NCBI GenBank assembly: GCA_041661245.1
Contig: JBAZUY010000001.1
Location: 294,876-358,875, forward strand
DNA from: an archaeon
Lineage (GTDB): Archaea; Iainarchaeota; Iainarchaeia; Iainarchaeales; JAAZKV01
Direction of reading: 5' to 3'
DNA: 64,000 bases
Shown: piece by piece, positions 7,007 to 60,480 of the stretch
How positions within the stretch are numbered: position 1 is the first letter of the stretch
How the letters are laid out: every line of letters begins with the position of its first letter
Made by a program: the position numbers and the translations under genes
The notes under the pieces: generated by a model
The model's database searches: none
Told to the model about the DNA's origin: nothing
What the model saw: the letters and a program-made list of their open reading frames with translations, nothing else

Positions 7007-7068
7007 ACCAACAAAAAGTTGCCCAAGGGCACTAATTTAAAGCTTTCTTTGGAATAAATTTTTGTAAT

Positions 7069-7143
7069 GGGCGGGTAGCTCAGCCCGATTGGAGCACGCG
7101 ACTGATAATCGCGCGGTCGTGAGTTTAAATCTCACCCTGCCCA
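7069..7143 (+). tRNA. tRNA-Ile (anticodon GAT)
   Basis: Hand-folded. Acceptor GGGCGGG/CCTGCCC (one G-U), D arm GCTC/GAGC, anticodon stem CGCGA/TCGCG with loop CTGATAA, T arm GTGAG-TTTAAAT-CTCAC, discriminator A. Confidence 0.85.
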
Positions 7144-7198
7144 TAAAAATTAGCAATACCAGCGTCAAACCTGGTATGTGCTAATAGAGTAAATAAGC

Positions 7199-7969
7199 CT
7201 AATCAACAACAAACTCATTGAAAATATTCTTTAATATTTTATCTTCTTTCAATTTAATCTTTTTTGGATTAAATTCAACTAAATCAATTGCTGTTGCTTT
7301 TTCTAACCCATAAGAGAAATATTTCTTTGCTAGCGGAACAGACAATCCCCCCGCATGAACGTAGCCAGTTGCTTGCATTATATTTGAGTCCAAAACATCC
7401 ACATCAAAAGAAAGGTACAAATTTTTAGCATTTATTAAAAACTCATTAAATTCTTTAAACACTTTTTCTTTATTTTCTTCAAGATCTTTAAAATAAATTT
7501 GTTTTACTCCGCTTGTTTTAAGGAATTCTTTCTCTGAGGGATAAATCTTTCGAAGACCAAAAAGCAGTATGTTTTGGGGAGGAACTATTTTTTGTTCAAC
7601 TAAAGCACGAACAAAATCCTCATGACTCGGAGTAGAAAGCCCTTCATCACAATCAGAATGAGCATCAAAAATTAAAATTGAGGAATCTTTATTCATCCCT
7701 GCAAAGGCTTTGAAAGTTGAAAAAGTAATATCGTGAGTTCCGCCAAAGAAAACAACTTTCTTCCCAATGCATTTAGTAAATGCTTCCGTAGATTGCAGCA
7801 CAATTTCTTTTTGCTGTAGTTCAACATCGTTTTTTGTTAACTCAAATTCATTTAATTGAACTGAAAAAAGCTCTGATAAGTAATTTGGGGCATTTTCACA
7901 CCCACTATTCTTACCAAGCGCCCCTTCGCTTGTTGAAACCCCAAAGAAACAAAACTTACTCGCAGGCAT
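7199..7969 (-). CDS. speB: Agmatinase / ureohydrolase family
   Basis: Mn-ligand motifs GGTHDITF, IFDAHSDCD and SFDVDVLD. It sits in an operon with deoxyhypusine synthase. Confidence 0.8.
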   Translation of the reverse strand: MPASKFCFFGVSTSEGALGKNSGCENAPNYLSELFSVQLNEFELTKNDVELQQKEIVLQSTEAFTKCIGKKVVFFGGTHDITFSTFKAFAGMNKDSSILIFDAHSDCDEGLSTPSHEDFVRALVEQKIVPPQNILLFGLRKIYPSEKEFLKTSGVKQIYFKDLEENKEKVFKEFNEFLINAKNLYLSFDVDVLDSNIMQATGYVHAGGLSVPLAKKYFSYGLEKATAIDLVEFNPKKIKLKEDKILKNIFNEFVVD

Positions 7970-12106: not shown

Positions 12107-13195
12107 TTAATCCTCTTCAAAAACCACGTTTTTGGGTTTAATTTTTACACACTTTTCTCCGTCTTTAACCTCGCCCAATTCCCAAACTACAATATTATGC
12201 TTTTTGCAAATCCTAAAAATCATTTCAGCACTCTCTTTCGGCGCCATTAACACATACCCCACACCCATGTTCAGAGTATAATACGCTTCCGCATCAGAAA
12301 TGCCCGCTTTTTCTTGTAAGAAACTAAATAATTCCGGTTTTTCTGGAACAAAATCAATTTCGTAACTCAATCTCTTCCTATTCCTCATTATTTTTTTCCA
12401 ACCATGCCCAGTTATTGGTTGCATATAATTAATTTGAGTAGAACTAACAAGATCAACTAATACTTTTGAATAAAGAGTGGTTGGCGTTAGAACTTCTTCC
12501 CCCACAATTTTACCGCTAGGTAGTTCAGTAAAATATCCTTCAGGAAGAGATTCCAATGTTTTTCTAATAAATGAAATACCATTTGAATGAACTCCGCTTG
12601 ACGCTAAACCGAATATTTTGTCTCCTGCTTTCATGTTTTGACCCACTGTTAAATTTTTTTTAGGATTAATTAATCCAATTGAAGCACCAGCTAAATCTAA
12701 AGCCCCCGGCTGAATAATTCCAACAAGGGAAGGAGTTTCCCCACAAGGAAGAGCCATTCCTAATTTTTCACACGCTTTTCTAAAACCTTCAAACAAAGAA
12801 TTAGTTTTTTCATCGCTTGAAAACCAATCAGACTTATGAGTGCTTAAAATATCCCCGTAAACAAAAGGATCCGCCCCAATTGAAGACAAGTCATTTGTGG
12901 ACATGGCAACATTATCCAAACCAATGTTCTCAAAATACTTAACCCCTTTTCCACGTTTGTCTAAAAACATTTTATCTGCAATAATATTTTTTGTCCCCAA
13001 ACCTTCAACATTAAACGCAAGATAATAATCCGAGTTTGGCAATTCTAATGCAACCGCGGATTCCCCAATAGTTTCAGGCAAAATTCGCACACCAATTCTT
13101 TTTGGCGCATCAAGATAGGGAGTAAATTTAGAGATTGCTGCTTTTTTTACAGGATCAAGTTTAGAATAATCAACAAATTCCGAATATTGCACCAA
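12107..13195 (-). CDS. purM: AIR synthase (PurM)-like protein
   Basis: NVEGLGTKN, VAMSTNDL, CGETPSL and SSGVHSNGISFIRK are collinear with the PurM motifs GTDGVGTK, VAMCVNDL, GGETAEMP and SSGPHSNGYSLVRK. Confidence 0.75.
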   Translation of the reverse strand: MVQYSEFVDYSKLDPVKKAAISKFTPYLDAPKRIGVRILPETIGESAVALELPNSDYYLAFNVEGLGTKNIIADKMFLDKRGKGVKYFENIGLDNVAMSTNDLSSIGADPFVYGDILSTHKSDWFSSDEKTNSLFEGFRKACEKLGMALPCGETPSLVGIIQPGALDLAGASIGLINPKKNLTVGQNMKAGDKIFGLASSGVHSNGISFIRKTLESLPEGYFTELPSGKIVGEEVLTPTTLYSKVLVDLVSSTQINYMQPITGHGWKKIMRNRKRLSYEIDFVPEKPELFSFLQEKAGISDAEAYYTLNMGVGYVLMAPKESAEMIFRICKKHNIVVWELGEVKDGEKCVKIKPKNVVFEED

Positions 13196-13214: not shown

Positions 13215-15143
13215 TTAACAAACTCTAACCTGAACTAATTTTAGTTTTAGTACTTCTTGTACTTTTTGGGGACTAACTGTCCCTTTAGTTTCTCGCATTA
13301 TTAGCCCCGCTAAAAAGTTTAATGATTTTTCATTTCCTGCTTTAAAGTCAAGAACTGCTTTATCATTTGCGCAAATTATTTTATCAACAATTGCTTCAAG
13401 ATCCACTGTTTCCGAGATTAACAAATTATTTTTCTTCAAATAATCTGCGGGAGTAGATTTATCCCCAGAAATATAATTAATCACTGATTGCTTTGCATTC
13501 TTATCAGAAACTTTTCCAGATTTGATTAATTCAACTAAACCGACTAAATCTTCAGCTCTAATTGAAACATCAGCAAAAGATAAGGCATCATGATTCAACA
13601 CAGCTAGAACTTCTCTTGTCAAAATTCTTGCAGAAATTGAAGGATCTGCTTTCTTTTCAATTAAACTGTCAAATATTTTTCCTAAATTAAAATCTCCGCA
13701 TAATACTCTTGCATCATATTCAGAGAAACCAAATTGCCCCATTAGCCTTTTTGCTTTTTGTTCAGGCAGTTCAGGCATACTAGCTTTAACTTTAATCAAG
13801 TAATCTTTTGTCAAAGAAACTTTAACTAAATCCGGGTCAAAAATATAACCATAATCATCTTCAGTTTCTTTTTTTCTTAAAGGAACAGTCACTCCGCTTT
13901 CTGCATTAAAAGCTCTTGTGTGCTGTTCAATTACCCGCCCTGCTTTAAATTCAACTTTTTGTCTAGCAAGTTCATAAGTAAGAGCTTTTTCTGCAGCAGC
14001 ATAACCTGAAACATTTTTTATTTCAGTTCTTAATCCGCCATTAATGGAGATATTACAATCCGCTTTCAAAGTAGTATCAGGACGTAATACATGCAAATAA
14101 CTCAAAATGTTTTCCAACGTATTCAAAAATTCCCTTGCTTCGGCAGGAGAAGATAAATCTGGTTCAGTTACTATTTCAATTAAAGGAAGTCCTGAACGAT
14201 TATAATCAATTAAAACGTAATTACTTTTCCCCATTCCATCCGGATGAACTAATGCGGCAGGATCCCATTCAATATGCGCTCTTCGTATCCGCACTTTTTT
14301 TCCACTCGGAAGAATTATTTCCCCCTTTTCTGCAATAGGAACTTCATATTGAGTGATTTGATAATTCATTGCCATATCTGGGTAAAAGTATGTTTTTCTT
14401 GAAAAAAAGAAATCCTCATTAATTTTGCAATTTAAAGCAAGCCCGACTTTTGTTGCAAGTTCAACCGCTTTTTCATTTAACACGGGCTTACTACCAGGGT
14501 GCCCTAAACAAATTGGGCAGCACAAAGTATTTGGTTCAGCTTCAATAGAATGAACAACCTTTTTTACTTCATCACTTTTTTCTTCAATTAATTCTTCTTC
14601 GGAAATATTTGCAATGGAAAAGTTGTCCAGGATTTTGAGCAGTTCTTCTTTTTTAATTTTTATGCCCGCAGTTTGCGCACCCGCATTAAAAGACAATAAT
14701 TCGTTTGAAAGTAAATTTTCATCAATTACTTTTTTTATTCCTTCAATTGTTGGAGGAACTAAACCCACAACACAATTTGTATATTCTTTAACTTCCTTCT
14801 TTGTAGCCATCCTAATTTCCGAAGCATTAAGTAAAGCCATTGCTTTATTTTCGTCAAGTTTTCTATTTCCAGAGAGCACAAATAAAATCGGATTAGAATC
14901 AACAACATAAACCAAAGCTTTTGCAATTTGAGAAATATGAACATTTCTTACTCTTGCAGAATCAATCGGTCTTGTTACAGCCTCATGCTCAACAAACTCA
15001 AACTTTGACCCCTTAACTTCCAAATACTCTTTTACCCAAGGTTTTTGCACCGCACTAGTCGGACAAGAACAAAACAATTTGCTCTCAGTACCCAAGTAAG
15101 CATGAATTTCAAGCCCAATGATTACACTAGTTTCGTCAGTCAT
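13215..15143 (-). CDS. gatB: Asp/Glu-tRNA amidotransferase subunit B with an inserted YbaK/ProX-like domain
   Basis: GLEIHAYL...LFCSCPT, then an insertion of about 175 aa, then LCCPICLGHPGSKPVLN, the IEWDPA region and a YqeY-like tail (LNFLAGLIMRETKG). 642 aa versus about 470-480 for a typical GatB. Shares ATGA overlaps with neighbouring genes. Confidence 0.9.
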   Translation of the reverse strand: MTDETSVIIGLEIHAYLGTESKLFCSCPTSAVQKPWVKEYLEVKGSKFEFVEHEAVTRPIDSARVRNVHISQIAKALVYVVDSNPILFVLSGNRKLDENKAMALLNASEIRMATKKEVKEYTNCVVGLVPPTIEGIKKVIDENLLSNELLSFNAGAQTAGIKIKKEELLKILDNFSIANISEEELIEEKSDEVKKVVHSIEAEPNTLCCPICLGHPGSKPVLNEKAVELATKVGLALNCKINEDFFFSRKTYFYPDMAMNYQITQYEVPIAEKGEIILPSGKKVRIRRAHIEWDPAALVHPDGMGKSNYVLIDYNRSGLPLIEIVTEPDLSSPAEAREFLNTLENILSYLHVLRPDTTLKADCNISINGGLRTEIKNVSGYAAAEKALTYELARQKVEFKAGRVIEQHTRAFNAESGVTVPLRKKETEDDYGYIFDPDLVKVSLTKDYLIKVKASMPELPEQKAKRLMGQFGFSEYDARVLCGDFNLGKIFDSLIEKKADPSISARILTREVLAVLNHDALSFADVSIRAEDLVGLVELIKSGKVSDKNAKQSVINYISGDKSTPADYLKKNNLLISETVDLEAIVDKIICANDKAVLDFKAGNEKSLNFLAGLIMRETKGTVSPQKVQEVLKLKLVQVRVC

Positions 15144-15643
15144 TTTCTCATCCTCTTAACAAATACTTCATCGTACAAATCTAATCCTTCTTTTAAATAA
15201 AAATGTCTAGCGCGTTTATTTCTTCGGTCAATTACCACGCGAACAACATCAATTCCTTTTTGTTTAGCAATCTTGAAAGCTTTTTTTAATAAATGCTCTC
15301 CAACTTTATGTTCTCGATATCCCTTCTCAACATAAAGATCCACAAGTTCTGCTTCATTTTTCCAAACGTAAATTTGCATTGGTTCGTTTGGAATTGGATT
15401 AACTGCAACAAGTGCATACCCAATTAATTTACCCTTCTCTTCAGCCACGAGTACAAAAGAATCTTTTGATAAAATTGCAGCTTTATTTTCTTTTTTTATT
15501 TCATTTGCATAATCTTTCTTGAAAGTATAATACCAACCATATTTTTTGTGAAAATCCATTAACTCTTTTCCAAAAAAGGAAACCTTCTCCAAATCAGCAA
15601 GAGTTGCAAACCTGTATTTTATAATTGGTTTTTGTTTATTCAT
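15140..15643 (-). CDS. GNAT-family N-acetyltransferase
   Basis: 167 aa with the acetyl-CoA loop YREHKVGEHLLKKA. Its ATG overlaps the gatA stop (ATGA at 15640-15643). Its stop overlaps the gatB ATG (ATGA at 15140-15143). Confidence 0.8.
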   Translation of the reverse strand: MNKQKPIIKYRFATLADLEKVSFFGKELMDFHKKYGWYYTFKKDYANEIKKENKAAILSKDSFVLVAEEKGKLIGYALVAVNPIPNEPMQIYVWKNEAELVDLYVEKGYREHKVGEHLLKKAFKIAKQKGIDVVRVVIDRRNKRARHFYLKEGLDLYDEVFVKRMRK

Positions 15644-17064
15644 GCTTCCACAACCTTTGCAAAAGAATAAAGTCTTTTTTCTTGTAAGTGAGGAGCAATA
15701 GCCATTAAACCAACCGGCAAGCCATTACTAAATCCTGCATTAACACTAACATGAGGCAAGCCCGCAAGATTTGCAGGAACCGTGCAAAGATCCATTGCAA
15801 AGTTTTGCATAGGGGTAAGTTTTTCTATTTCATCAAATCTAGGCGCAGTAACAGGCATTGTTGGGCAAAGTAACAAATCGTATTTTTTGAAAGCACTATT
15901 AAATTCATCAATTAATTTTGTTCTAACCTTCATTGCTTTCAAGTAATAAGCATCACGATAACCACTCATTCTGGCAAATGTTCCAAGAATAATTCTTCTC
16001 TTGGCTTCTTCGCTAAATTCTTTACTTCTTATTTCTGAAAAATATTCATCAAAGTGCTTTCCTTGCACCTCCCCTTGAACACCATACCGAAGTCCGCACA
16101 ATTTTGCTAAATTTGTTGAAGCCTCGCAAGTAGCAATTGTATAATATGCACTAAGCGCATACTTCACATTTAATGGGAGAGTAACCTCTTCAACAACAAA
16201 AAACTTTTTTAGCTCATTAATCTTTGTTTGAATTACTTTTTTTACTTCCTCATCACACCCATCAAAAAAATCTTTTATTACTGCAATCTTCTTTATTACT
16301 GCTTCTTCTTTTCTAAATCCGTTTGCTAAAGAAGTAGAATCTTTAGGATCAAAACCGGCAATCACTTCAAGTAAAAGCGCAGCATCATCAGCATTTTTTG
16401 CAATTGCTCCAATTTTATCCAGGGAATTTGCATAATCAATTAAACCATATCTTGAAACAACCCCATAAGTAGGAGTAATTCCAACACTTCCGCAAAAAGA
16501 AGCAGGACAAGCAATACTTCCCCCAGTACTTTCTCCAATCGCTAAGTGATAAGTTTTTGTGTAAGCTGTAAAACCTGCAGCACCCCCGCTTGAACCCCCA
16601 CAAGATCGTGAATTATCAAAAGGATTTTTTGGAACTTTTTCAGTGTGTGTTGCAAATGTTCCAAACCCAAATTCATCCTGAGTAGTTTTTGCTAAAATAA
16701 TTGCCCCTTCTGCTCTTGCTTTTTCAATTACGGTTGCATCAAAAACTGGTTTATACCCTTTAAGTATTTTTGAACCAGCTTTGGATTCAATTCCTTTAAC
16801 ACAAATTGCATCTTTTACAGTTACTGGAACACCAAAAAGTTTTCCATAATATTTTGAGTCCTTTGTTTCAAAACTTTTTTTTAATTCTTCAAACTGTTTT
16901 AGAACATCTTTAACATCAAACTCTTCAATGTAATTTAATTTCTTGGATTCAGTTGTTTTAATTTCTGAAATAACTTGCGCAAGGTTTTTGTCCACGAGTG
17001 AAAAGTCTTTTCTAGCATTTTCAACAAAAAACTCAATTGTATCTTCTCTTTTCATCAAAATCAC
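15640..17064 (-). CDS. gatA: Asp/Glu-tRNA amidotransferase subunit A
   Basis: Amidase signature GGSSGGAAG. 474 aa. Confidence 0.93.
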   Translation of the reverse strand: MILMKREDTIEFFVENARKDFSLVDKNLAQVISEIKTTESKKLNYIEEFDVKDVLKQFEELKKSFETKDSKYYGKLFGVPVTVKDAICVKGIESKAGSKILKGYKPVFDATVIEKARAEGAIILAKTTQDEFGFGTFATHTEKVPKNPFDNSRSCGGSSGGAAGFTAYTKTYHLAIGESTGGSIACPASFCGSVGITPTYGVVSRYGLIDYANSLDKIGAIAKNADDAALLLEVIAGFDPKDSTSLANGFRKEEAVIKKIAVIKDFFDGCDEEVKKVIQTKINELKKFFVVEEVTLPLNVKYALSAYYTIATCEASTNLAKLCGLRYGVQGEVQGKHFDEYFSEIRSKEFSEEAKRRIILGTFARMSGYRDAYYLKAMKVRTKLIDEFNSAFKKYDLLLCPTMPVTAPRFDEIEKLTPMQNFAMDLCTVPANLAGLPHVSVNAGFSNGLPVGLMAIAPHLQEKRLYSFAKVVEA

Positions 17065-17103: not shown

Positions 17104-17406
17104 CTACAATGCCTTCGGCCCCTTAATGTAACCATCCTGCTTTAACTTAACCGAAACATTTTGTAAAGCCTCATCTAAAGTAAGAGTCTTTCCAGGAAGA
17201 TCTTTTCTAAACCTATTACTCATTTCAACAGGCTGAAAACTAGCTTTTGTATCAGTCGCATCAATACTGTCAAGTTTATTGAAAGAATCCAGAATTATTT
17301 CTTTTATTTGCGGAACGAATTTTTCAAGTTCTTCCTCAGTCAAAGTAAGCCTTGCATTAATAGCAACTTTTCGAATCAAATCCTTTGTTACTTCTATTTG
17401 AACCAT
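17104..17406 (-). CDS. gatC: Asp/Glu-tRNA amidotransferase subunit C
   Basis: 100 aa, directly upstream of gatA. GatC-like N-terminal helix (VAINARLTLTEEELEKF) and a C-terminal DGY..GPK. Confidence 0.7.
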   Translation of the reverse strand: MVQIEVTKDLIRKVAINARLTLTEEELEKFVPQIKEIILDSFNKLDSIDATDTKASFQPVEMSNRFRKDLPGKTLTLDEALQNVSVKLKQDGYIKGPKAL

Positions 17407-17488
17407 ATCAGAAATGGATGGAAAAGGTTTTTTAAAGGAAAAAGTCGGTAAGTAATACTTAAAGAAAAAGCATAATTAGGCGAAACAA

Positions 17489-18016
17489 ATGGCTGGGGGA
17501 AAAATACACGGACAGGGAGGACATGGCCGCTTTTCAAAAGAACTCCAAAGAAAATACGCGCATAGCGAAGAAGCACTGGCAAAAATTGCAAGAGCAAAAG
17601 AAAAAAGCGTCCGATGGTTTGAAAGAAAATCAATGGCTCTTAAGGAACACATTGAAACTAACCTCAACAAAACAGCTGTTGGTGCAATAAAAAATATTGA
17701 GGCTTCCACCAGTTCCAAAACCAGGACTCCAATCAGCAGAAACAACGCATTAGTCAGATTAATCGCGGTAGATCAATGGTTTTTCGAGCATGCAACAAAA
17801 AAAGCAAAAGAACTTGGCATTGAAAGAGAAGTCGAACCAGAAGCACTCCACTTGCTAAAAAGAGAAGAACGAGAAAACTATTGGGGAGAATTAGTTGGAA
17901 AACACGTGTACTTTGGATTTACGTTTCATGGAAGGACTTCAAAAGAACTAAAAGAAGAAATAGAAAAATGGAAGATTAGAGTTCCAAGAATCGCCCAAGG
18001 ACAATACACCAGATAA
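17489..18016 (+). CDS. Hypothetical basic protein
   Basis: 175-aa ORF with no motif I recognise. Antisense ORFs in the track look spurious. Confidence 0.4.
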   Translation: MAGGKIHGQGGHGRFSKELQRKYAHSEEALAKIARAKEKSVRWFERKSMALKEHIETNLNKTAVGAIKNIEASTSSKTRTPISRNNALVRLIAVDQWFFEHATKKAKELGIEREVEPEALHLLKREERENYWGELVGKHVYFGFTFHGRTSKELKEEIEKWKIRVPRIAQGQYTR

Positions 18017-48017: not shown

Positions 48018-49508
48018 TTATTTCTGTTCTTCAACTTTCTTTTCAGGTCTCATTTGTGGGAAGAAGATTACATCCCTAATTGTAGAAGAGTTTGTCAAAA
48101 TCATTACGATTCTATCAATTCCAAGCCCAAGTCCTGCTGCGGGAGGCATTCCGTATCCGATTGCATCCAAGAAGTCATCATCAAGTTGATGGTTTTCTCC
48201 TTTTGCTTTTCCTTGATCTTTTTGTTCTTCGAAGAATTGTCTTTGTAATATTGGATCATTTAATTCTGAGTATGCATTACACAATTCATTTCCGTTAATG
48301 TAACATTCTGTTCTTTCAATTAAAAGTTCTTTATCCTCTCGTGAAGGTTTACATAAAGGAGTTGTTTCTTTAGGATATTCTGTAACCCAAGTTGGTTGCA
48401 TTAATTCTGCTTCGCAAAAGTGTTCAAATAATTCTGCAACAACAAGACCCCATTTCTTTGAATCCGCATCAATTTCCACTTTCTCAGTTCTTGCAATATC
48501 AAGTAATTCTTCAAGAGTCAAAGTTTTTACCGCTTTACCGAGTTTTTCGCTTAATGCATCAAGCATTTTGATTCTCTTCCATGGAGCTTTAAGATCAATT
48601 TCGTTTCCTTCATAAAGAACTTTAGTTGAACCATTTACTTTTAATGCAACATACTCAATTAACTCTTCAGTTAATTTCATTATATCATTTAAATCAGCAT
48701 AAGACCAATAATATTCACACTCAGTAAATTCAGGGTTGTGAGTTTTATCTACATCTTCATTTCTAAAGTTTTTACAAATAGTATAAACTTTTTCATATCC
48801 GCCAACTAATAATCTTTTCAAATAAAGTTCTGGAGAAATTGTTAAATAAAAATTTGATTTCCAAGCATAAGACATAGTAGTAAATGGTCTTGCACTAGCC
48901 CCCCCATAATTTGGTTGAAGGGTTGGAATTTCTACTTCTAAAAATCCTTTAGAATCTAAATATTCTCTCCAAGCAGAAATAATTTTTGATCTTTTTACAA
49001 AAATATCCCTAGTTTCTGGATTCATTATTAAATCCAAATATCTTTTTCTTTGTCTAATTTCAATATCCTGTAGTCCATGGAACTTTTCTGGCAAGGGAAG
49101 AATAGATTTACATAAAACTTCTAAAGAATCAACTAAAATAGATAACTCTCCTCTTTGAGTTCTATAAACTTTTCCTTTAGTTCCAACAATATCCCCTAAA
49201 TCAATCATGTCAAGTAAAGTAAAAACTTCATCAGGAGTATCTCCTTTTTTTAAGAAAAATTGAATCATTCCTTTTGCATCAGCAACTTTTAGGAATGCAA
49301 TTGCACCAAAACTCCTCTTTGCCATTACTCTTCCTGCAATATTAAACTCAGGCCCTTTTTCTTCATTTTTTAGTGAAACAAAATCTTTTTGTAAATCCGC
49401 TGAATAAGAAGTAGTTTCAAACTTGTAAGGATAGGGATTAATTCCTTTATCTACCAATTTTTGCAAATTATCTTTCTTTGCCTTTACAAGATCGTTTTCC
49501 ATAAACAA
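48018..49508 (-). CDS. lysS: Lysyl-tRNA synthetase, class II
   Basis: OB-fold N-domain, FRNEDVDKTHNPEFTECEYY (motif 2) and GLGLGIDRIVMILT (motif 3). Confidence 0.92.
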   Translation of the reverse strand: MFMENDLVKAKKDNLQKLVDKGINPYPYKFETTSYSADLQKDFVSLKNEEKGPEFNIAGRVMAKRSFGAIAFLKVADAKGMIQFFLKKGDTPDEVFTLLDMIDLGDIVGTKGKVYRTQRGELSILVDSLEVLCKSILPLPEKFHGLQDIEIRQRKRYLDLIMNPETRDIFVKRSKIISAWREYLDSKGFLEVEIPTLQPNYGGASARPFTTMSYAWKSNFYLTISPELYLKRLLVGGYEKVYTICKNFRNEDVDKTHNPEFTECEYYWSYADLNDIMKLTEELIEYVALKVNGSTKVLYEGNEIDLKAPWKRIKMLDALSEKLGKAVKTLTLEELLDIARTEKVEIDADSKKWGLVVAELFEHFCEAELMQPTWVTEYPKETTPLCKPSREDKELLIERTECYINGNELCNAYSELNDPILQRQFFEEQKDQGKAKGENHQLDDDFLDAIGYGMPPAAGLGLGIDRIVMILTNSSTIRDVIFFPQMRPEKKVEEQK

Positions 49509-50782: not shown

Positions 50783-52069
50783 ATGAAAACAGAGAATAAG
50801 AAAGAAAGTGAATTAAGTAAAAAAGTGATAATGCTTACCAAGGAAGAGATTCCAACACACTATTATAATGTGCTAGCGGATTTACCTTTTCCATTACCAA
50901 TGCCACAAGGAGATTTAGAAATACTGGGCAAAATATTTCCTCAAGAAATACTCGGACAAGAAATGAGTCAAGAAAAATTTATTCCAATCCCTGATGAAGT
51001 AAGAGAGATTTATGCAAAAATAGGACGACCAACTCCATTACAAAGAGCAGATAGACTTGAAAAAGCACTTGGAACAAATTGTAAAATATTTTTCAAAAGA
51101 GAAGACACTACATTACAAGGAAGTCACAAAATTAATACTGCACTGGCACAAGCCTATTATATCAAAAAAGCAGGTTACAAAAATGTTACAACAGAAACAG
51201 GAGCAGGACAATGGGGATGCGCACTTTCACTTGCATCAAAATTCTTTGGATTAAACTGTACGGTTTACCAAGTAAAATGCAGTTATGAACAAAAACCTGC
51301 AAGAAGAACAATAATGAAATTATTTGGAGCAAAAGTAATTGCAAGTCCAAGTGACACTACAAAAATTGGAAGAGAAATGCAAAAAAAATTCCCAAACACT
51401 TCTGGATCATTAGGAATGGCTATTGCAGAAGCTGTTGAAGTTGCAAAAGAAAGAGAAGACACAGTATACAGTTTAGGAAGCGTACTAAACCACGTACTAT
51501 TACACCAAACAATAATTGGACAAGAAGTAAAAAAGCAACTTGAAAAAATCGGAGAAAAAGCAGATGTTATTATTGCATGCGTTGGAGGAGGAAGTAACTT
51601 CGGAGGAATCGCATTCCCTTTCATCCCGGATGTACTCAAAGGAGAAAAAATTGAAATTATTGCAGTTGAACCAAGTGAAGTGCCAAGTATGACAAAAGGA
51701 GAATACAAATTTGATTATGGAGACACAGGAAAACAAACTCCATTACTAAAAATGTACACTCTTGGAGCGGATTATGTTCCCGAAGCAATATACGCTGGAG
51801 GATTAAGATACCACGGAATGTCTCCAATTGTTTCCCTGCTATTTGACCACAAATTAATCAAAGCAGTTTCCCATACTCAAAAAGAATGCTTTGAAGCAGC
51901 AAAATTATTTGCAGAAACAGAAGGAATAATTGCAGCACCAGAATCAAGCCATGCACTAAAAGAAGCAATTGAACAAGCAAAGAAAAATAATGGAAAAACA
52001 ATTGTATTCAATTTATCCGGAAATGGGATATTGGATTTAAGTGCATATGAAAAAGTATTGGAATTGTAA
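50783..52069 (+). CDS. trpB2: Tryptophan synthase beta chain, TrpB2 (long) type
   Basis: EDTTLQGSHKINTALAQAYY, TETGAGQWG and GGGSNFGG. 428 aa with an N-terminal extension. Confidence 0.9.
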   Translation: MKTENKKESELSKKVIMLTKEEIPTHYYNVLADLPFPLPMPQGDLEILGKIFPQEILGQEMSQEKFIPIPDEVREIYAKIGRPTPLQRADRLEKALGTNCKIFFKREDTTLQGSHKINTALAQAYYIKKAGYKNVTTETGAGQWGCALSLASKFFGLNCTVYQVKCSYEQKPARRTIMKLFGAKVIASPSDTTKIGREMQKKFPNTSGSLGMAIAEAVEVAKEREDTVYSLGSVLNHVLLHQTIIGQEVKKQLEKIGEKADVIIACVGGGSNFGGIAFPFIPDVLKGEKIEIIAVEPSEVPSMTKGEYKFDYGDTGKQTPLLKMYTLGADYVPEAIYAGGLRYHGMSPIVSLLFDHKLIKAVSHTQKECFEAAKLFAETEGIIAAPESSHALKEAIEQAKKNNGKTIVFNLSGNGILDLSAYEKVLEL

Positions 52070-52125
52070 AAAAAGAATAAATAATCAAAAGTAAAGTGGA
52101 AAGAAATAATTAATGAAAAACGGAA

Positions 52126-53313
52126 GTGAATGAAGATATGGAAAAAAATATTTTTGATACAAAGAACACACGCTTTGGAGAATTTGGCGGACAATTCATC
52201 CCCGAAATGATGATGCCTGCACAAAAAGCTCTTGAGGAAGCATTCAACAAATACGCATTCACTTCAGAGTTTCAAAAAGAACTAGATTATTTACTAAAAG
52301 AATTCGCAGGAAGAGAAACCCCCCTCTATTTTGCAGAAAATATGTCAAAAGATATTGGATGCAAAGTTTACCTAAAAAGAGAAGATCTCTTACACAGTGG
52401 AGCACACAAAATAAATAACGCACTCGGACAAGCCCTACTTGCAAAAAAAATGGGTAAAAAAGAAATCATTGCAGAAACAGGAGCAGGACAACACGGAGTA
52501 GCAACAGCAATTGTTGGAGCACTATTCAAAATCCCTGTAAAAGTATTCATGGGAGAAATTGATGTAAAAAGACAAGCACTAAATGTTTACCGAATGAAAC
52601 TATTTGGAGCAGAAGTAATTTCAGTAACAAGCGGAAGCAAAACTCTAAAAGATGCTGGAAACGAAGCAATGAGATATTATTTAGCAAACGTAGAAACTTG
52701 TTATTATTTAATAGGAAGCGCAGTAGGACCACACCCTTATCCAAAAATAGTTCAACACTTCCAAAAAGTAATTGGAAAAGAAATTAAAGAACAAATACTT
52801 GCAAAAGAAAAAAAACTTCCCAGTGTTATTGTTGCATGCATTGGAGGAGGATCAAACGCAATAGGAGCATTTGATAATTTCCTAAATGATAAAAGCGTTA
52901 AACTTGTTGGAATTGAAGCCGGGGGAAACGGAGTAAAACATGGAAAAACACTTGGAGAAGGAACAATCGGAATTTTCCAAGGAAGCAAATCATATTTACT
53001 TCAAACAAAAGACGGACAAGTATGCGAAGCGCACAGTATTTCAGCTGGACTTGATTATCCGGGAGTCGGCCCAGTACACAGTTTCCTAAAAGATAGCAAA
53101 AGAGGAACTTACGAAAGCGCAACAGATGATGAAGCAGTAAAAGCACTTAGATACTTGTGCAAAATGGAAGGAATTTTACCAGCACTAGAATCCTCACACG
53201 CAATTGCATATGTTTTACGAAACAAAGGAAAATTCAAAAAAGAGGACATTGTTGTAATTAACCTCTCAGGAAGAGGAGACAAAGATGTTAATCAATTATT
53301 AGAGGTGGAATAA
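52126..53313 (+). CDS. trpB: Tryptophan synthase beta chain, TrpB1 type
   Basis: FGEFGGQFIPE, HSGAHKINNALGQ, TGAGQHG and GGGSNAIG. Confidence 0.93.
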   Translation: MNEDMEKNIFDTKNTRFGEFGGQFIPEMMMPAQKALEEAFNKYAFTSEFQKELDYLLKEFAGRETPLYFAENMSKDIGCKVYLKREDLLHSGAHKINNALGQALLAKKMGKKEIIAETGAGQHGVATAIVGALFKIPVKVFMGEIDVKRQALNVYRMKLFGAEVISVTSGSKTLKDAGNEAMRYYLANVETCYYLIGSAVGPHPYPKIVQHFQKVIGKEIKEQILAKEKKLPSVIVACIGGGSNAIGAFDNFLNDKSVKLVGIEAGGNGVKHGKTLGEGTIGIFQGSKSYLLQTKDGQVCEAHSISAGLDYPGVGPVHSFLKDSKRGTYESATDDEAVKALRYLCKMEGILPALESSHAIAYVLRNKGKFKKEDIVVINLSGRGDKDVNQLLEVE

Positions 53314-54083
53314 TGTTTAAGAGCAAAGTTTTCATGCCATTCGCAGTACTTGGAGACCCCAACTATGAAGAATCACTAAAAATAATTCAAGGATTTGTAA
53401 AAAATGGAGCAGGAGCACTAGAACTTGGATTTGCATTTAGTGACCCAATCGCAGATGGACCAATAATACAAAAAGCAAATAATCGGGCACTAGAAAATGG
53501 AATCACTACAAAGAAAGCATTTGAAATAATTGAAAAAGTGAGAAAAGACACAAGTATTCCAATTAGCGTAATGTTAAGTTACAACATTGTTTACAACTAT
53601 GGAGTAGAAAACTTTTACAAAAAATGCGCAGAACTAAAAGTAGATGGAGTCCTTTGCCCGGATGTACCCCTTGAGGAAGCGGAAGAATTAATTGAACTTT
53701 CAAAAAAATACAAACTCGCACAAATATTCATTGTATCCCCAACTACAACAAAAGAAAGAATGGGACTACTCAACAAATACGCAAGCGGATACACCTACAT
53801 GGTTTCTCTACTTGGAACAACAGGAGTAAAAACAGAACTAAACACACAACTCCCAGCAATGATAAAACTTTGTAAAAAAGAAATGAAACTCCCACTCTAC
53901 GTAGGATTTGGAATAAGTAAGCCAGAACACGCAGCTAACGTAATAAAACTAGGCGCTGACGGAGCAATAAGCGGATCAGCTATTTGTAAAATAGTTGAAG
54001 AAAACTTAACTAATCCCAAAGAAATGCAAGCAAAGATCAACAAATTTTGCAAAGAAATGAGTGAGGCCGTAAAGAATGCCTGA
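53313..54083 (+). CDS. trpA: Tryptophan synthase alpha chain
   Basis: LELGFAFSDPIADGPIIQKA and GFGISKPEH. The ATG overlaps the trpB stop. Confidence 0.9.
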   Translation: MFKSKVFMPFAVLGDPNYEESLKIIQGFVKNGAGALELGFAFSDPIADGPIIQKANNRALENGITTKKAFEIIEKVRKDTSIPISVMLSYNIVYNYGVENFYKKCAELKVDGVLCPDVPLEEAEELIELSKKYKLAQIFIVSPTTTKERMGLLNKYASGYTYMVSLLGTTGVKTELNTQLPAMIKLCKKEMKLPLYVGFGISKPEHAANVIKLGADGAISGSAICKIVEENLTNPKEMQAKINKFCKEMSEAVKNA

Positions 54084-55428
54084 TATTTTAGATCAGATAG
54101 TGGAGAACAAAAGAAAGGAAGTTTTAATTTCTAAGAAAAAACTCCCTCTTGCAAAACTCCAAAAAGGACTGCTTCCTAGCGAGAAAAACTTCTTTTCCGC
54201 ACTAAAAGGAAAAAACAACATTATTGCAGAAATAAAATACAAATCCCCTTCAGCAGGGAAGATTGGAAAAAAGAGATCAATTAAAGAAATTGCAACTGCT
54301 TACAACAAATACGCAAGTGCAATCTCTGTACTCACTGATAAAAAATTCTTTGCAGGAGATTTGAAGTACATTAAAGAAACAAAAAAATACACCCAGTTAC
54401 CAATACTTAGAAAAGATTTCATTATTGATGAATACCAAATATACGAAGCAAGATATTTTGGGGCAGATGCCATATTACTAATTGCATCAATACTTTCTGC
54501 TGAAGAAATTGAGAAATATTTATTCATTGCACGAAAACTTGGAATGGAAGCTTTAGTTGAAACAAAAACAAAAGAAGAAATAGAAAAAGTACTTCGTACA
54601 AGTGCAAGAATAATTGGAATTAATAATAGAAATTTAGCGGATTTCAAAATTACGCTTAATACTACAAAGGAACTAAAAAAACTAATCCCTGCCGAGCGAA
54701 TTGTTGTTAGTGAATCAGGGATTTACACAAAAGCAGACATTTTGGACCTTGACACAAATGCAGCACTAATTGGAACTTCTTTAATTGAAGCAAAAGATAT
54801 TAGTGAAAAACTCTCTTCCCTTCACAAAGTAAAAGTAAAAATCTGCGGAATCACAAATTTAGAAGATGCAAAAAATGCAATAGACGCAGGAGCAGACATT
54901 TTGGGATTTAATTTTTATACAAAAAGCCCGCGATATATACCGACTGCAAAAGCAACTGAAATAATTAAGAACTTGCCAAACACCGTACAAACTGTAGGAG
55001 TATTTGTAAACTCTCCTGCAAAAGAAGTTAAAGAAATCCAAAAACAAACCGGAATTGATTTCATTCAATTACACGGAGATGAAACAGAAAAATTTTGCAA
55101 ACAAATTGGAGCAAACACAATAAAAGCCCAAAGAGTAAAAGAAAAACTACCCACGGAGAAAGAATTGATTTACGCAAGACTATATGACACCTTCGACCCT
55201 AACGCATTTGGAGGAACTGGAAAAACATTCGATAAGAAACTATTAAAACAGGCAAAAGGCAAAATAATTGTAGCTGGCGGGCTAAAAATAGATAATGTAA
55301 ATGAATCCATTCAGTCAATTCACCCCTACGCACTAGACACTTGCTCGGGAGTAGAAAGCACCCTTGGAAAGAAAGATAAAACAAAAATGATTAATTTTAT
55401 TCAAAAGGTGAGAGAAAATGACAATTAA
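54076..55428 (+). CDS. trpCF: Fused indole-3-glycerol-phosphate synthase / phosphoribosylanthranilate isomerase
   Basis: N-terminal half ILDQIVENKRKEV, AEIKYKSPSAG and ILRKDFIIDEYQI. C-terminal half VKICGITNLEDA. Confidence 0.9.
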   Translation: MPDILDQIVENKRKEVLISKKKLPLAKLQKGLLPSEKNFFSALKGKNNIIAEIKYKSPSAGKIGKKRSIKEIATAYNKYASAISVLTDKKFFAGDLKYIKETKKYTQLPILRKDFIIDEYQIYEARYFGADAILLIASILSAEEIEKYLFIARKLGMEALVETKTKEEIEKVLRTSARIIGINNRNLADFKITLNTTKELKKLIPAERIVVSESGIYTKADILDLDTNAALIGTSLIEAKDISEKLSSLHKVKVKICGITNLEDAKNAIDAGADILGFNFYTKSPRYIPTAKATEIIKNLPNTVQTVGVFVNSPAKEVKEIQKQTGIDFIQLHGDETEKFCKQIGANTIKAQRVKEKLPTEKELIYARLYDTFDPNAFGGTGKTFDKKLLKQAKGKIIVAGGLKIDNVNESIQSIHPYALDTCSGVESTLGKKDKTKMINFIQKVRENDN

Positions 55429-58539: not shown

Positions 58540-58587
58540 ATCCAAAACAACACAAGGCTAAGTTTAAAAAAGACAAGAAAACAAGTA

Positions 58588-59715: not shown

Positions 59716-60480
59716 ATGAAATATACTTCTTCACAAAGAAGCGCAGCTTCCCAAGCTAAATCAAGACACACAAAAATACCTTTTACTAAAGCCTTAGGAC
59801 AAGTACTTGAAGCAAGTTCAAAAGCAAGAGCAAGAAATAGGGCTGAAAAACTAAGTGAACTACGAAGATTCACTTGGATGCTAAAAAGAGCAGGATTTAA
59901 AGATGCAAGCAATATGGGCGCAGGAGTGGATATTTCAATTGAAACTGTAATCAGAGGAAAAAAAGTAAAAATAACTGCCGACCAAAAAGTTGCTAACGGT
60001 GGAAAACACGGAGACGGAGCAATAGAAACAAGAATACAAAACAAGCAACTTTACAACAAAGCAGATTGGATAATCGTATTAAACAAAGAAAGAACAATGG
60101 AAGCTTTCCCTGCTGAAGCACTAGCCAGATTTGTAAAACAACAATTTGGAAGCTTAAGATTTTACGAACGCAGAAAAAAATATGATGTTTATTCAGTAAG
60201 ACTAGCAGACCTTTACAGATTTATGAAACAAATATTAGAATCTGAACCAATAAAAATAGGATTAAGCAAAGAAGCAGGAAAGTTGCTTATTGAAGAAATG
60301 ATTAAACGCGAAAGAGCAAAGTTACCCCCACTAGCTAAACCAAAAAATCCGCCAATTTATAGAGGCCCTGTTAGAAAAGGATTAACAAGAGCAAAAAATG
60401 CTAAAGCACCAAACACCCCACTTAGAAGCAGGCAGAGAATATTTGATAGAAAAGTTAATCCAGGGATAAGACAAAAGTAA
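59716..60480 (+). CDS. Hypothetical protein with PD-(D/E)xK-like motif, paralogue A
   Basis: The start abuts the trpS stop. GVDISIE...KITADQK...NKADWIIVLNKE...FPAEALARFVKQQ. Basic P/K/R-rich tail. Confidence 0.45.
   Translation: MKYTSSQRSAASQAKSRHTKIPFTKALGQVLEASSKARARNRAEKLSELRRFTWMLKRAGFKDASNMGAGVDISIETVIRGKKVKITADQKVANGGKHGDGAIETRIQNKQLYNKADWIIVLNKERTMEAFPAEALARFVKQQFGSLRFYERRKKYDVYSVRLADLYRFMKQILESEPIKIGLSKEAGKLLIEEMIKRERAKLPPLAKPKNPPIYRGPVRKGLTRAKNAKAPNTPLRSRQRIFDRKVNPGIRQK

What the first reader, a model, noticed from the sequence alone, without database searches (positions are those of the whole stretch)
14529..15053. GatB with a ~175-aa YbaK/ProX-like aminoacyl-tRNA editing domain inserted between its CSC and CPxCLG motifs
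Seen: the 642-aa ORF is collinear with canonical GatB (typically about 470-480 aa). The matching parts are residues 1-30 (GLEIHAYLGTESKLFCSCPTS) and residues ~207 to the end (LCCPICLGHPGSKPVLN ... YqeY-like tail). The two Cys motifs are normally only about 10-20 residues apart, but here about 175 residues intervene. The insert reads ISQIAKALVYVVDSNPILFVLSGNRKLDENKAMALLNASEIRMATKKEVKEYTNCVVGLVPPTIEGIKKVIDENLLSNELLSFNAGAQTAGIKIKKEELLKIL. By eye it has the hallmarks of the YbaK/ProX/ProRS-INS superfamily. These are the conserved Lys in K-[AT]-L-hydrophobic, a run of hydrophobics then G..+LD..K, the A..eEV...T....G.v.P loop, and a terminal aG....i.i....L. Established: these domains hydrolyse mis-acylated tRNAs. 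GatB handles the aminoacylated CCA end of Asp-tRNA(Asn)/Glu-tRNA(Gln). Inference: a cis-fused deacylase-type domain on the transamidosome could proofread or clear unamidated or mis-acylated tRNA. Alternatively it could simply hold the CCA end. I know of no described GatB with this architecture.
Basis: partly seen in the sequence, partly recalled or inferred. Interest (0 to 1): 0.8.

Follow-up and report, generated by a model that had tools for sequence, protein, structure and literature searches.

The report
GatB carrying an inserted tRNA-deacylase domain
In a group of tiny-genome archaea, the enzyme subunit that converts Asp-tRNA(Asn) into Asn-tRNA(Asn) carries an inserted copy of a domain that normally strips wrong amino acids off tRNAs, which hints at an undescribed hydrolytic quality-control step in this indirect tRNA-charging pathway.

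Summary
The 642-aa ORF (13215-15143, minus strand) is a genuine GatB in a gatC-gatA-(GNAT)-gatB operon. Residues 31-205 are looped out between the CxC and CxxC halves of its four-Cys motif.

Residues 36-180 are an INS/YbaK-superfamily domain:
- Pfam tRNA_edit E=1e-21.
- AlphaFold pLDDT 96.
- TM 0.88 and rmsd 1.7 Å to T. thermophilus ProX (ProXp-x).
- The catalytic Lys (K75) and the GXXXP loop (G127-P131) are invariant.
- dN/dS is about 0.1.

It is not an artefact. 32 of the 120 best GatB clusters and 12 GTDB species carry the domain, all DPANN and nearly all labelled Iainarchaeota. A second architecture has the same domain fused N-terminally to GatB.

The domain is dispensable. A syntenic relative with 94% core identity lacks exactly these 516 bp, and about 10 presence/absence changes map on the tree.

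The nearest relatives of the domain are fused to the GatB tail domain (YqeY). Other close relatives are fused, repeatedly, to non-discriminating AspRS in CPR bacteria.

Best reading: an accessory cis-acting aminoacyl-tRNA deacylase that checks the tRNA(Asn)/transamidation route. The substrate is unknown. I found no description of it in the literature. I rate it a new variant of a known kind.

The parts
17104..17406 (-). gatC (100 aa), first gene of the operon
   Evidence: Pfam GatC PF02686, E=2.3e-10.
15640..17064 (-). gatA (474 aa, amidase)
   Evidence: Pfam Amidase, E=5.6e-110.
15140..15643 (-). GNAT N-acetyltransferase gene (167 aa) wedged between gatA and gatB. It overlaps each by 4 nt. 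It is a variable accessory gene and is not correlated with the insert.
   Evidence: Pfam Acetyltransf_1, E=1.3e-15. Present in L002; absent in L001, L003 and L005.
13215..15143 (-). gatB with insert (642 aa). It is identical to NCBI MFA6064518.1 / MFA6399151.1, which are annotated only as GatB.
15054..15143 (-). GatB residues 1-30: strand beta1 (GLEIH, with E12 and H14) and the first half of the four-Cys motif (C25, C27 at 15063-15071).
   Evidence: Aligned to 3h0l/3al0 residues 1-31. G10, L11, E12, H14, C25 and C27 are invariant in 59 sequences.
14529..15053 (-). The whole insert as flagged, residues 31-205. The indel relative to the insert-less syntenic relative L001 is window 14536-15051 (516 bp, replaced by 6 bp).
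   Evidence: blastn of L001 against the window; DNA alignment of the junctions.
14604..15038 (-). ProX-like (INS/YbaK superfamily) deacylase domain, residues 36-180.
   Evidence: Pfam tRNA_edit, E=9.8e-22. AF2 pLDDT 96 and pTM 0.90. Foldseek to 2z0k/2cx5: TM 0.88-0.89, rmsd 1.7-1.8 Å, 31% identity. dN/dS 0.09-0.10.
14919..14921 (-). Codon of K75, the strictly conserved catalytic Lys of the INS superfamily (QIAKAL).
   Evidence: Invariant in 20/20 clade members and 99% conserved in 146 nearest homologues. Its role is described in PMC11286415.
14751..14765 (-). G127-L-V-P-P131, the GXXXP loop of the INS superfamily.
   Evidence: G127, V129, P130 and P131 are invariant. Its role is described in PMC11286415.
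14529..14603 (-). Acidic flexible linker (residues 181-205) returning the chain to GatB.
   Evidence: pLDDT <50 at residues 192-199. Length and sequence vary. dN/dS 0.21-0.28, against about 0.1 for the domain.
14508..14519 (-). C209-P-I-C212, the second half of the four-Cys motif. It comes immediately after the insert.
   Evidence: C209 and C212 are invariant.
13215..14528 (-). Remainder of GatB: the cradle domain continued, the helical domain and the YqeY-like tail (residues 490-636 = 13236-13676), plus the stop codon.
   Evidence: Pfam GatB_N 200-448 and GatB_Yqey 490-636. Foldseek to GatB chains: target-normalised TM 0.81-0.87.

Best explanation
The insert is a folded, selectively maintained ProXp-x-like aminoacyl-tRNA deacylase domain. 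It is looped out of the four-Cys knuckle of the GatB cradle domain. The N-side connector is short (~8 residues) and the C-side tether is flexible, acidic and ~25 residues long.

GatB itself looks intact, so the protein should still work as the kinase/transamidase subunit of GatCAB.

Most likely mechanism (inferred): the helical and tail domains of GatB hold tRNA(Asn), and possibly tRNA(Gln). The 3' end of that tRNA can then sample either the GatB phosphorylation/amidation pocket or the tethered deacylase pocket. This would resemble how the CCA end moves between the synthetic site and the INS editing site in bacterial ProRS. The deacylase would hydrolyse an ester that should not reach the ribosome.

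Candidate substrates, in order of my preference:
1. Asp-tRNA(Asn) that fails to be amidated.
2. A product amidated on the wrong tRNA (Asn-tRNA(Asp)). Archaeal GatCAB does not read the first base pair.
3. A non-cognate, D- or non-protein aminoacyl group put on tRNA(Asp/Asn) by ND-AspRS.

The module is accessory. It improves quality control but is not needed for transamidation, and it has been lost many times.

What is shown: domain identity, fold, retention of catalytic motifs, purifying selection, clade distribution, dispensability, and recurrent fusion of related domains to pathway partners.

What is inferred: catalytic activity, action in cis on GatB-bound tRNA, and substrate identity.
For: Identity and fold.

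Catalytic hallmarks: K75 and G127xxxP131 are invariant. So are H53, R66, T122, D141 and F152-N-A-G155, which are shared with the nearest free-standing homologues.

Selection: dN/dS of the domain is 0.09-0.10, against 0.05-0.08 for the GatB core and 0.21-0.28 for the linker.

GatB intact: the NCBIfam equivalogs are above cut-off. The catalytic strand and the four Cys are invariant. The gene sits in a gatC-gatA-gatB operon.

Not an artefact: 32 of 120 clusters from JGI, NCBI, ENA and Logan carry the domain. Twelve GTDB species representatives carry it.

Functional coupling:
- The same domain clade occurs in two topologies, as the Zn-loop insert and as an N-terminal fusion.
- An exhaustive profile search of 1.84e9 representatives found no free-standing member of the clade. 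Only 3 representatives reached E<=1e-30, and all are GatB-linked or fragments.
- The next tier of hits contains another GatB N-terminal fusion, two ProX-YqeY proteins and 8 AspRS-ProX fusions.
- GatB-linked and YqeY-linked domains group together and share derived residues I73, S151 and G160.
- ND-AspRS-ProX fusions are widespread in CPR Microgenomates.
- In the N-terminal-fusion lineage, aspS sits in the same operon as gatCAB.

Conceptual precedent: H. pylori GluRS2 hydrolyses excess Glu-tRNA(Gln). Transamidosomes have been described as editing-like systems. Archaeal GatCAB lacks first-base-pair discrimination.
Against: - No activity, substrate or geometry could be tested. The structure tool returns no coordinates, so I do not know whether the deacylase pocket can reach the tRNA 3' end held by GatB.
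- Hydrolysing Asp-tRNA(Asn) on the very enzyme (GatB or ND-AspRS) that makes or consumes it would be a futile cycle unless it is kinetically gated.
- The domain is dispensable. L001 has 94% core identity, is syntenic over 17 kb, and lacks exactly the insert. About 10-11 presence/absence changes map on the NJ tree.
- Related domains are also fused to unrelated partners (RuvX, redoxin, GmrSD, a PBP). AspRS-linked domains look like ordinary free-standing family members.
- aspS-ProX and ProX-YqeY genes are not next to gatCAB in the two loci examined.
Confidence: 0.55

Rival explanations
1. Generic trans-editing factor hitch-hiking on GatB. The domain would do the usual ProXp-x-type job, clearing Ala/Abu or other small mischarged residues from tRNA(Pro) and other tRNAs. 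It would be fused to a housekeeping gene only for co-expression or stability in a streamlined genome, with no mechanistic link to transamidation.
For: - The closest characterised family is ProXp-x (2CX5).
- Archaeal-type ProRS lacks an INS domain (established knowledge).
- The insert is dispensable and often lost.
- Related domains are fused to unrelated partners.
- The long flexible linker would allow action in trans.
Against: - Partner choice is strongly non-random. Of the multidomain proteins among the 150 nearest representatives, 11 outside the clade involve GatB, YqeY or AspRS. None involves ProRS or any other synthetase.
- Two independent topologies on GatB have been retained.
- No free-standing member of the clade exists in 1.84e9 representatives.
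- The clade has its own invariant residues: Q72-I73, K138, S151 and G160.
Confidence: 0.25
2. Non-catalytic acceptor-end or partner-binding module. The domain would bind the aminoacylated CCA end, protecting or handing over Asp-tRNA(Asn). Alternatively it would dock ND-AspRS to build a transamidosome. In either case it would not hydrolyse anything.
For: - YbaK is known to work in a synthetase-YbaK-tRNA ternary complex (cited).
- GatCAB protects ester bonds.
- Fusion to either AspRS or GatB would fit a bridging role.
Against: Every residue that marks catalytic INS-family members is invariant: K75, GXXXP and FNAG. A mere binding module would be expected to let some of them drift. The purifying selection is as strong as on the GatB core.
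Confidence: 0.13
3. Artefact or selfish insertion: an assembly chimera, or an intein-like or otherwise mobile element that happens to sit in gatB.
For: - Presence and absence are patchy among close relatives at one fixed site.
- One insert-less hit (P0098) is indeed a chimera at its 5' end.
Against: - The same architecture occurs at 45-88% identity in dozens of independent assemblies and in 12 GTDB species.
- The composition equals that of the flanks.
- The fold is ProX, with no Hint, endonuclease or transposase features.
- Insert divergence tracks core divergence, so inheritance is vertical rather than by recent spread.
- No terminal repeats are visible in the aligned junction sequences.
Confidence: 0.02

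Closest known systems
ProXp-x / ProX trans-editing factors (T. thermophilus TTHA1699, PDB 2CX5/2Z0K; A. pernix APE2540, 1WDV; R. palustris ProXp-x)
   Same: - Same fold: TM 0.88, rmsd 1.7 Å, 31% identity.
- Best sequence matches among solved structures.
- Same catalytic Lys and GXXXP loop.
   Different: - The known members are free-standing ~155-aa proteins that act in trans on Abu/Ala-tRNAs.
- Here the domain is an internal insert in GatB.
- It forms a separate clade, with a score gap of 213 to 117 bits.
- It has its own invariant residues: I73, K138, S151 and G160.
- The substrate is unknown.
INS editing domain of bacterial ProRS
   Same: An INS-superfamily domain inserted inside the catalytic domain of a host enzyme that holds the tRNA, so that the CCA end can move between two sites. 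This is the closest architectural analogue. Fold match to 2J3L: TM 0.78.
   Different: - The host is an amidotransferase subunit, not a synthetase.
- Sequence similarity is weak (E~1e-7 to 1e-8 with the clade profile).
- The insert here is dispensable.
YbaK (Cys-tRNA(Pro) deacylase)
   Same: Same superfamily and fold (1DBX, TM 0.87).
   Different: It fails the YbaK equivalog, scoring 36.9 bits against a cut-off of 153. According to the 2024 review, YbaK is found only in bacteria.
GatE of archaeal GatDE, with its AspRS-like insertion domain
   Same: It shows that the GatB/GatE cradle tolerates a whole inserted domain (my own knowledge of 1ZQ1 and 2D6F; both are fold hits).
   Different: The inserted fold is different (GAD/AspRS-insertion-like), the insertion position in the cradle is different, and the insert is constitutive in GatE.
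H. pylori GluRS2 hydrolysing excess Glu-tRNA(Gln) in the transamidosome
   Same: A functional precedent for hydrolytic removal of the mischarged intermediate of an indirect pathway.
   Different: That activity resides in the synthetase active site, not in a dedicated editing domain. The pathway is bacterial and makes Gln.
ND-AspRS with a C-terminal tRNA_edit domain (CPR Microgenomates) and ProX-YqeY two-domain proteins, both found here
   Same: Related ProX-like domains fused to other components, or to tRNA-binding modules, of the same pathway.
   Different: - The hosts and topologies differ.
- AspRS-linked domains resemble ordinary free-standing members.
- As far as my searches show, neither is described in the literature.

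Membership tests
GatB (Asp-tRNA(Asn)/Glu-tRNA(Gln) amidotransferase subunit B) | Full-length match to the curated GatB equivalog models, above their cut-offs | tested here: met
   NF004012 scores 504 bits (cut-off 338) and TIGR00133 scores 444 bits (cut-off 314.8), each in two stretches flanking the insert.
GatB (Asp-tRNA(Asn)/Glu-tRNA(Gln) amidotransferase subunit B) | Cradle + helical + YqeY-like tail architecture and fold | tested here: met
   Pfam GatB_N and GatB_Yqey. Foldseek gives a target-normalised TM of 0.81-0.87 to 3ip4_B, 3h0l_B and 2g5i_B.
GatB (Asp-tRNA(Asn)/Glu-tRNA(Gln) amidotransferase subunit B) | Encoded together with gatC and gatA | tested here: met
   The gene order is gatC 17104-17406, gatA 15640-17064, GNAT, gatB. 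Relatives show the same order.
GatB (Asp-tRNA(Asn)/Glu-tRNA(Gln) amidotransferase subunit B) | ATP-dependent transamidation of Asp-tRNA(Asn) or Glu-tRNA(Gln) | not testable with these tools
   This needs an enzyme assay. Only the conservation of GLEIH (E12, H14) and other invariant residues is shown.
INS / YbaK superfamily (Pfam tRNA_edit PF04073) | Profile match above the Pfam gathering score | tested here: met
   77.8 bits against 25.5, E=9.8e-22, residues 53-170.
INS / YbaK superfamily (Pfam tRNA_edit PF04073) | YbaK/ProX fold | tested here: met
   The insert-only AF2 model has pLDDT 96. It gives TM 0.86-0.89 to 2cx5, 2z0k, 1wdv and 1dbx.
INS / YbaK superfamily (Pfam tRNA_edit PF04073) | Strictly conserved Lys and the GXXXP loop | tested here: met
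   K75 and G127-L-V-P-P131 are invariant in the clade and aligned with the 99%-conserved K, G and P of homologues. The definition is taken from PMC11286415.
INS / YbaK superfamily (Pfam tRNA_edit PF04073) | Hydrolysis of an aminoacyl-tRNA ester | not testable with these tools
   This needs deacylation assays with the wild type and K75A.
ProXp-x family specifically | Closest sequence and structure relationship to ProXp-x representatives | tested here: inconclusive
   2CX5 is the best single-sequence and fold hit. With the clade profile, however, 3op6 (function unknown) scores higher. The clade is also separated from all free-standing proteins by a large score gap. No sequence-similarity-network assignment was done.
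ProXp-x family specifically | Abu-tRNA deacylation with a preference for A73 | not testable with these tools
   This is a biochemical property.
YbaK (Cys-tRNA(Pro) deacylase, TIGR00011) | Equivalog score above the cut-off | tested here: not met
   36.9-40.5 bits against a cut-off of 153.25.
Intein or other mobile insertion | Hint, endonuclease or transposase domain, or terminal repeats | tested here: not met
   tRNA_edit is the only significant Pfam match in the insert; the one other match there, DUF424, is far below threshold (E=0.1). The junctions are clean and show no repeats. The fold is ProX.

The most novel reading that the evidence does not exclude
The ProX-like module would be a dedicated hydrolytic proofreading site of the tRNA-dependent asparagine pathway, the first editing site found on an amidotransferase. 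It would clear Asp-tRNA(Asn) that escapes amidation. Alternatively it would clear Asn-tRNA(Asp) made because archaeal GatCAB ignores the first base pair. Ultra-small-genome lineages would have recruited this solution repeatedly: on GatB in DPANN Iainarchaeota and on ND-AspRS in CPR Microgenomates. That would reveal a third fidelity mechanism for indirect aminoacylation, alongside transamidosome channelling and elongation-factor discrimination.
Probability: 0.33. Interest if true: 0.8.

Novelty: new variant of a known kind. Interest (0 to 1): 0.62.

Why it matters
How cells keep the deliberately mischarged intermediates of the indirect Asn/Gln pathways out of proteins is usually explained by channelling in transamidosomes and by rejection at EF-Tu. 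In mycobacteria the pathway is known to leak and cause adaptive mistranslation.

A catalytically intact deacylase domain built into GatB, with relatives on the partner ND-AspRS, points to a hydrolytic checkpoint that nobody has tested. It gives concrete constructs to test:
- natural alleles with and without the insert, at 94% core identity;
- a K75A mutant;
- two natural topologies.

It also extends the INS superfamily, which a recent review describes as single-domain apart from ProRS INS, to new multidomain contexts. And it gives a possible functional handle on ProX-like families whose function is unknown.

Tried and rejected
1. Searching the insert alone with the word-indexed protein search returned only P0121. 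That protein turned out to be a frameshifted fragment of an N-terminal-fusion GatB, not a free-standing homologue. The exhaustive profile search replaced this approach.

2. I took P0013/P0098 as a second near-identical pair with and without the insert (96% core identity). I rejected it because P0098 has a foreign 5' end of ~65 residues on a 1.5-kb contig, so it is a chimera.

3. I asked whether the neighbouring GNAT and AIRS/PurM-like genes travel with the insert. They do not: L002 has GNAT only, L003 has AIRS only, and L001 and L005 have neither.

4. I asked whether the insert spread laterally like a homing element. No pair of lineages has a young insert in an old core. Insert distance is about 1.4-1.6 times core distance for close pairs and plateaus near 0.45 for distant pairs. 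Repeated loss is therefore favoured. NJ trees on 145 columns cannot exclude some allelic recombination.

5. I looked for a second tRNA_edit gene in the window and in all fetched loci. There is none.

6. I tried to find the position of the GatB Zn site relative to the tRNA in the literature. The Aquifex structure paper is not held, and no coordinates are available from the model, so the geometry is untested.

7. I checked for operon linkage of CPR aspS-ProX and of ProX-YqeY to gatCAB. Neither is linked in the loci examined.

8. No Rfam elements lie near the locus. The window holds only three tRNAs.
Full report
**1. Observation**

The window carries, on the minus strand, the genes gatC (17104-17406), gatA (15640-17064), a 167-aa GNAT acetyltransferase (15140-15643) and a 642-aa ORF (13215-15143).

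The 642-aa protein passes the curated NCBIfam GatB equivalog cut-offs. Pfam splits GatB_N into residues ~1-30 and 200-448, with GatB_Yqey at 490-636. Between the two GatB_N pieces it places tRNA_edit (PF04073) at residues 53-170, with E=9.8e-22 and 77.8 bits against a gathering score of 25.5.

Alignment to solved GatBs shows collinearity. Query residues 1-28 match chain residues 1-28, and query 200/201 resumes at chain residue 30-32. Relatives without the insert have 5-7 residues there.

The insert lies between C25-x-C27 and C209-x-x-C212, and all four Cys are invariant in 59 aligned family members. From my own memory, these four Cys form a structural Zn site in Aquifex GatB. I could not retrieve the paper to confirm this.

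The observation and its coordinates are therefore correct.

**2. What the insert is**

- By sequence, the insert's best solved relatives are T. thermophilus ProX TTHA1699 (2CX5; E=1e-11) and A. pernix APE2540.
- With a profile of 20 clade members, the order of hits is 3op6, 2cx5, 1wdv, then ProRS INS, YbaK and ProXp-ala.
- The full-length AlphaFold model has pLDDT 86 and pTM 0.71. Residues 36-185 score 82-97 and the segment 192-199 scores below 50.
- The insert modelled alone has pLDDT 96 and pTM 0.90.
- Foldseek gives TM 0.88-0.89, rmsd 1.7-1.8 Å and 31% identity to 2z0k/2cx5, and TM 0.87 to YbaK 1dbx. The rest of the protein matches GatB chains with a target-normalised TM of 0.81-0.87.
- A 2024 review uses 2CX5 as the representative of ProXp-x, an Abu/Ala-tRNA deacylase family.
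- The YbaK equivalog is failed, at 36.9 bits against a cut-off of 153.

The INS superfamily is defined functionally by a strictly conserved Lys and a GXXXP loop (PMC11286415). Here these are K75 (QIAKAL) and G127-L-V-P-P131. Both are invariant in 20/20 clade members. They align with the 99%-conserved K, G and P of the 146 nearest homologues, as do H53, R66, T122, D141 and F152-N-A-G155.

dN/dS of the domain is 0.09-0.10, against 0.05-0.08 for the GatB core and 0.21-0.28 for the linker. dS is saturated, so these values are rough.

The domain is therefore folded, under purifying selection, and looks catalytically competent.

**3. Not an artefact, and where it occurs**

The query is identical to NCBI MFA6064518.1 / MFA6399151.1 from a 788-kb archaeal MAG contig, which is annotated simply as GatB.

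Of the 120 best GatB clusters, 32 carry the domain at 45-88% identity. They come from JGI, NCBI, ENA and Logan assemblies.

A scan of one genome per GTDB species found 12 species with it. They are labelled Candidatus Iainarchaeum or Forterrea, or simply 'archaeon'/'uncultured archaeon'; one is labelled Woesearchaeota. The window itself is archaeal: it has Nop56/58 and deoxyhypusine synthase. Base composition across the insert equals that of its flanks.

**4. A second architecture**

About ten clusters (P0090, P0101, P0102 and others, ~620 aa) carry the same domain clade as an N-terminal fusion ahead of a complete GatB. Insert identity to the query is ~50%, and the clade-specific residues are the same. 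The sequence reads ...ADVSFGRT-MVGLECHVQL...CGC...CPVCLG.

In that lineage the operon is aspS (bacterial-type, with a GAD domain)-gatC-gatA-x-x-[ProX-gatB].

So the association with GatB has survived a topological rearrangement.

**5. Dispensability**

Locus L001 (GCA_964578405.1) is syntenic with the window over 17 kb at 80-92% nucleotide identity. Its GatB is 94% identical in the core. That is closer than any insert-bearing relative; the best of those is 89%. Yet window 14536-15051 (516 bp) is replaced by 6 bp in L001. The GNAT gene and the AIRS/PurM-like gene at 12107-13195 are also cleanly absent from L001.

On an NJ tree of the core, insert-bearing sequences are scattered among insert-less ones. 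Fitch parsimony needs about 10-11 changes. One apparent case, P0098, is a chimera and was discounted.

Insert and core distances are correlated (Pearson r=0.66; Spearman only 0.30). The insert evolves ~1.4-1.6 times faster than the core between close pairs and plateaus near 0.45 between distant ones. No pair shows a young insert in an old core.

I therefore favour one ancient acquisition followed by repeated precise loss. Some allelic replacement by recombination cannot be excluded. The apparent excess of insert-bearing sequences among deep branches is a ranking bias of the hit list.

**6. Relatives of the domain**

A profile search of 1.84 billion representative proteins gave only three hits at E<=1e-30. 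These were a GatB with insert, a truncated one, and a frameshifted N-terminal-fusion fragment. The score then drops from 213 to 117 bits. No free-standing member of this clade exists in that library.

In the next tier, most hits are ~155-aa free-standing proteins. The multidomain ones are:
- another, divergent ProX-GatB N-terminal fusion (P0124);
- two ProX + GatB_Yqey proteins (P0125, P0154);
- eight class IIb synthetases with a C-terminal ProX domain.

The synthetase fusions include a bacterial AspRS with a GAD domain (P0140, 815 bits on the aspS equivalog). They also include an archaeal-type ND-AspRS (P0128, 508 bits against a cut-off of 353 on aspartate--tRNA(Asn) ligase). The remaining multidomain hits are a few unrelated fusions to RuvX, redoxin, GmrSD and a PBP, and tandem triplications.

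GatB-linked and YqeY-linked domains cluster together and share derived residues I73, S151 and G160. AspRS-linked domains resemble the free-standing consensus.

A search with P0128 shows that ND-AspRS-ProX fusions are common in CPR Microgenomates (Roizman-, Ames-, Woese- and Pacebacteria). They are annotated only as aspartate--tRNA(Asn) ligase, and they too are patchy relative to domain-less relatives.

None of the multidomain neighbours involves ProRS or another synthetase. This partner bias is the main argument that the domain's job is tied to tRNA(Asn)/tRNA(Asp) and the transamidation route.

**7. Mechanism (inferred)**

GatB binds the tRNA elbow and D-loop with its helical and tail domains, and takes the acceptor end into the cradle (PMC2811023). 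The deacylase is anchored at the cradle by an ~8-residue connector and a ~25-residue flexible return linker. It could offer the CCA end a second, hydrolytic destination, as INS does in ProRS.

Plausible substrates are:
- Asp-tRNA(Asn) that is not amidated;
- non-cognate or D-aminoacyl groups placed by ND-AspRS.

There is precedent for hydrolysing an excess mischarged intermediate in H. pylori GluRS2. Transamidosomes have been described as editing-like systems.

A domain on either AspRS or GatB could reach the same tRNA in a transamidosome. That would explain why related domains sit on either partner.

Against this reading:
- hydrolysing the pathway's own intermediate would be futile unless kinetically gated;
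- the domain is dispensable;
- I could not test geometry, activity or substrate.

**8. Rivals**

- A generic ProXp-x-type trans-editing factor merely fused for expression (0.25).
- A non-catalytic CCA- or partner-binding module (0.13).
- An artefact or selfish element (0.02).

Details and refuting results are given in the structured fields.

**9. Novelty**

Of nine full-text searches, those aimed at such a fusion found no description of a GatB or AspRS carrying an INS-superfamily domain. [quoted passage not shown]

The sequences have been public for years, for example archaeon GW2011_AR21 and the CPR KKU91974.1, but they are annotated only by their host enzyme.

This is a known domain and a known enzyme in a new combination that is mechanistically suggestive. 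I rate it a new variant of a known kind, with interest 0.62.

Noticed in passing
window 15140-15643 (-): A 167-aa GNAT N-acetyltransferase gene sits between gatA and gatB, overlapping each by 4 nt, which suggests translational coupling. It is present in the relative L002 and absent in L001, L003 and L005. Some GNATs acetylate aminoacyl-tRNAs, but nothing here shows that this one does. Its best NCBIfam match, RimI, is far below the cut-off.
   Followed up: partly
window 12107-13195 (-): An AIR-synthase-related (PurM-like) gene lies immediately downstream of gatB. It scores 198 bits against a purM cut-off of 236. It is cleanly absent in L001, L002 and L005 and present in L003. The ends of gatB therefore look like a hotspot for gene-sized indels.
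   Followed up: partly
P0128, P0275-P0393; L021 8001-9815: Non-discriminating AspRS with a C-terminal tRNA_edit (ProX-like) domain is widespread in CPR Microgenomates. It is annotated only as aspartate--tRNA(Asn) ligase. Bacterial-type AspRS (with a GAD domain) carrying the same appendage also exists (P0140, P0135). I found no description of either.
   Followed up: partly
P0125 / L022 8001-8936; P0154: These are two-domain proteins made of a ProX-like deacylase plus the GatB YqeY tail domain, with no GatB catalytic part. P0125 lies in an archaeal genomic context. They look like a deacylase with a borrowed tRNA(Asn/Gln)-binding module.
   Followed up: partly
L007 876-7875: In the Iainarchaeota lineage with the N-terminal fusion, a bacterial-type AspRS (with a GAD domain) sits in one operon with gatC, gatA, an inositol monophosphatase-like gene, an MBL-fold gene and ProX-gatB.
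   Followed up: no
P0098 (ENA, 1470-bp contig): This GatB is essentially identical to P0013 from residue ~68 on (a single mismatch near the C terminus), but its first ~65 residues are bacterial-like and foreign. It is probably an assembly chimera at the conserved FFFSRKTYFYPD region. It would mislead presence/absence counts.
   Followed up: yes
L001 16394-16996, corresponding to the window junction ~7196-7200 next to tRNA-Ile 7068-7144: The relative L001 has a ~200-aa ORF here with a weak LAGLIDADG_3 match. The window has no counterpart to it.
   Followed up: no
L001 8589-10004 and 13986-14903: In L001, gatA and the deoxyhypusine synthase gene are each called as fragments, although the DNA aligns end to end with the window. 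This suggests frameshift errors in that assembly. The 516-bp absence of the insert is not an error of that kind.
   Followed up: partly
window 17400-18016 (+): This region has unusual strand composition (AT skew +0.35 to +0.41, positive GC skew). It holds a 175-aa Lys/Glu-rich ORF with no Pfam match, divergent from the gat operon.
   Followed up: no
window 48018-49508 (-) and 50783-60480 (+): The archaeon has a class II (bacterial-type) LysRS, scoring 623 bits on NF001756. It also has a trp gene cluster with fused trpC-trpF (54076-55428) and fused trpG-trpD (56896-58539).
   Followed up: no
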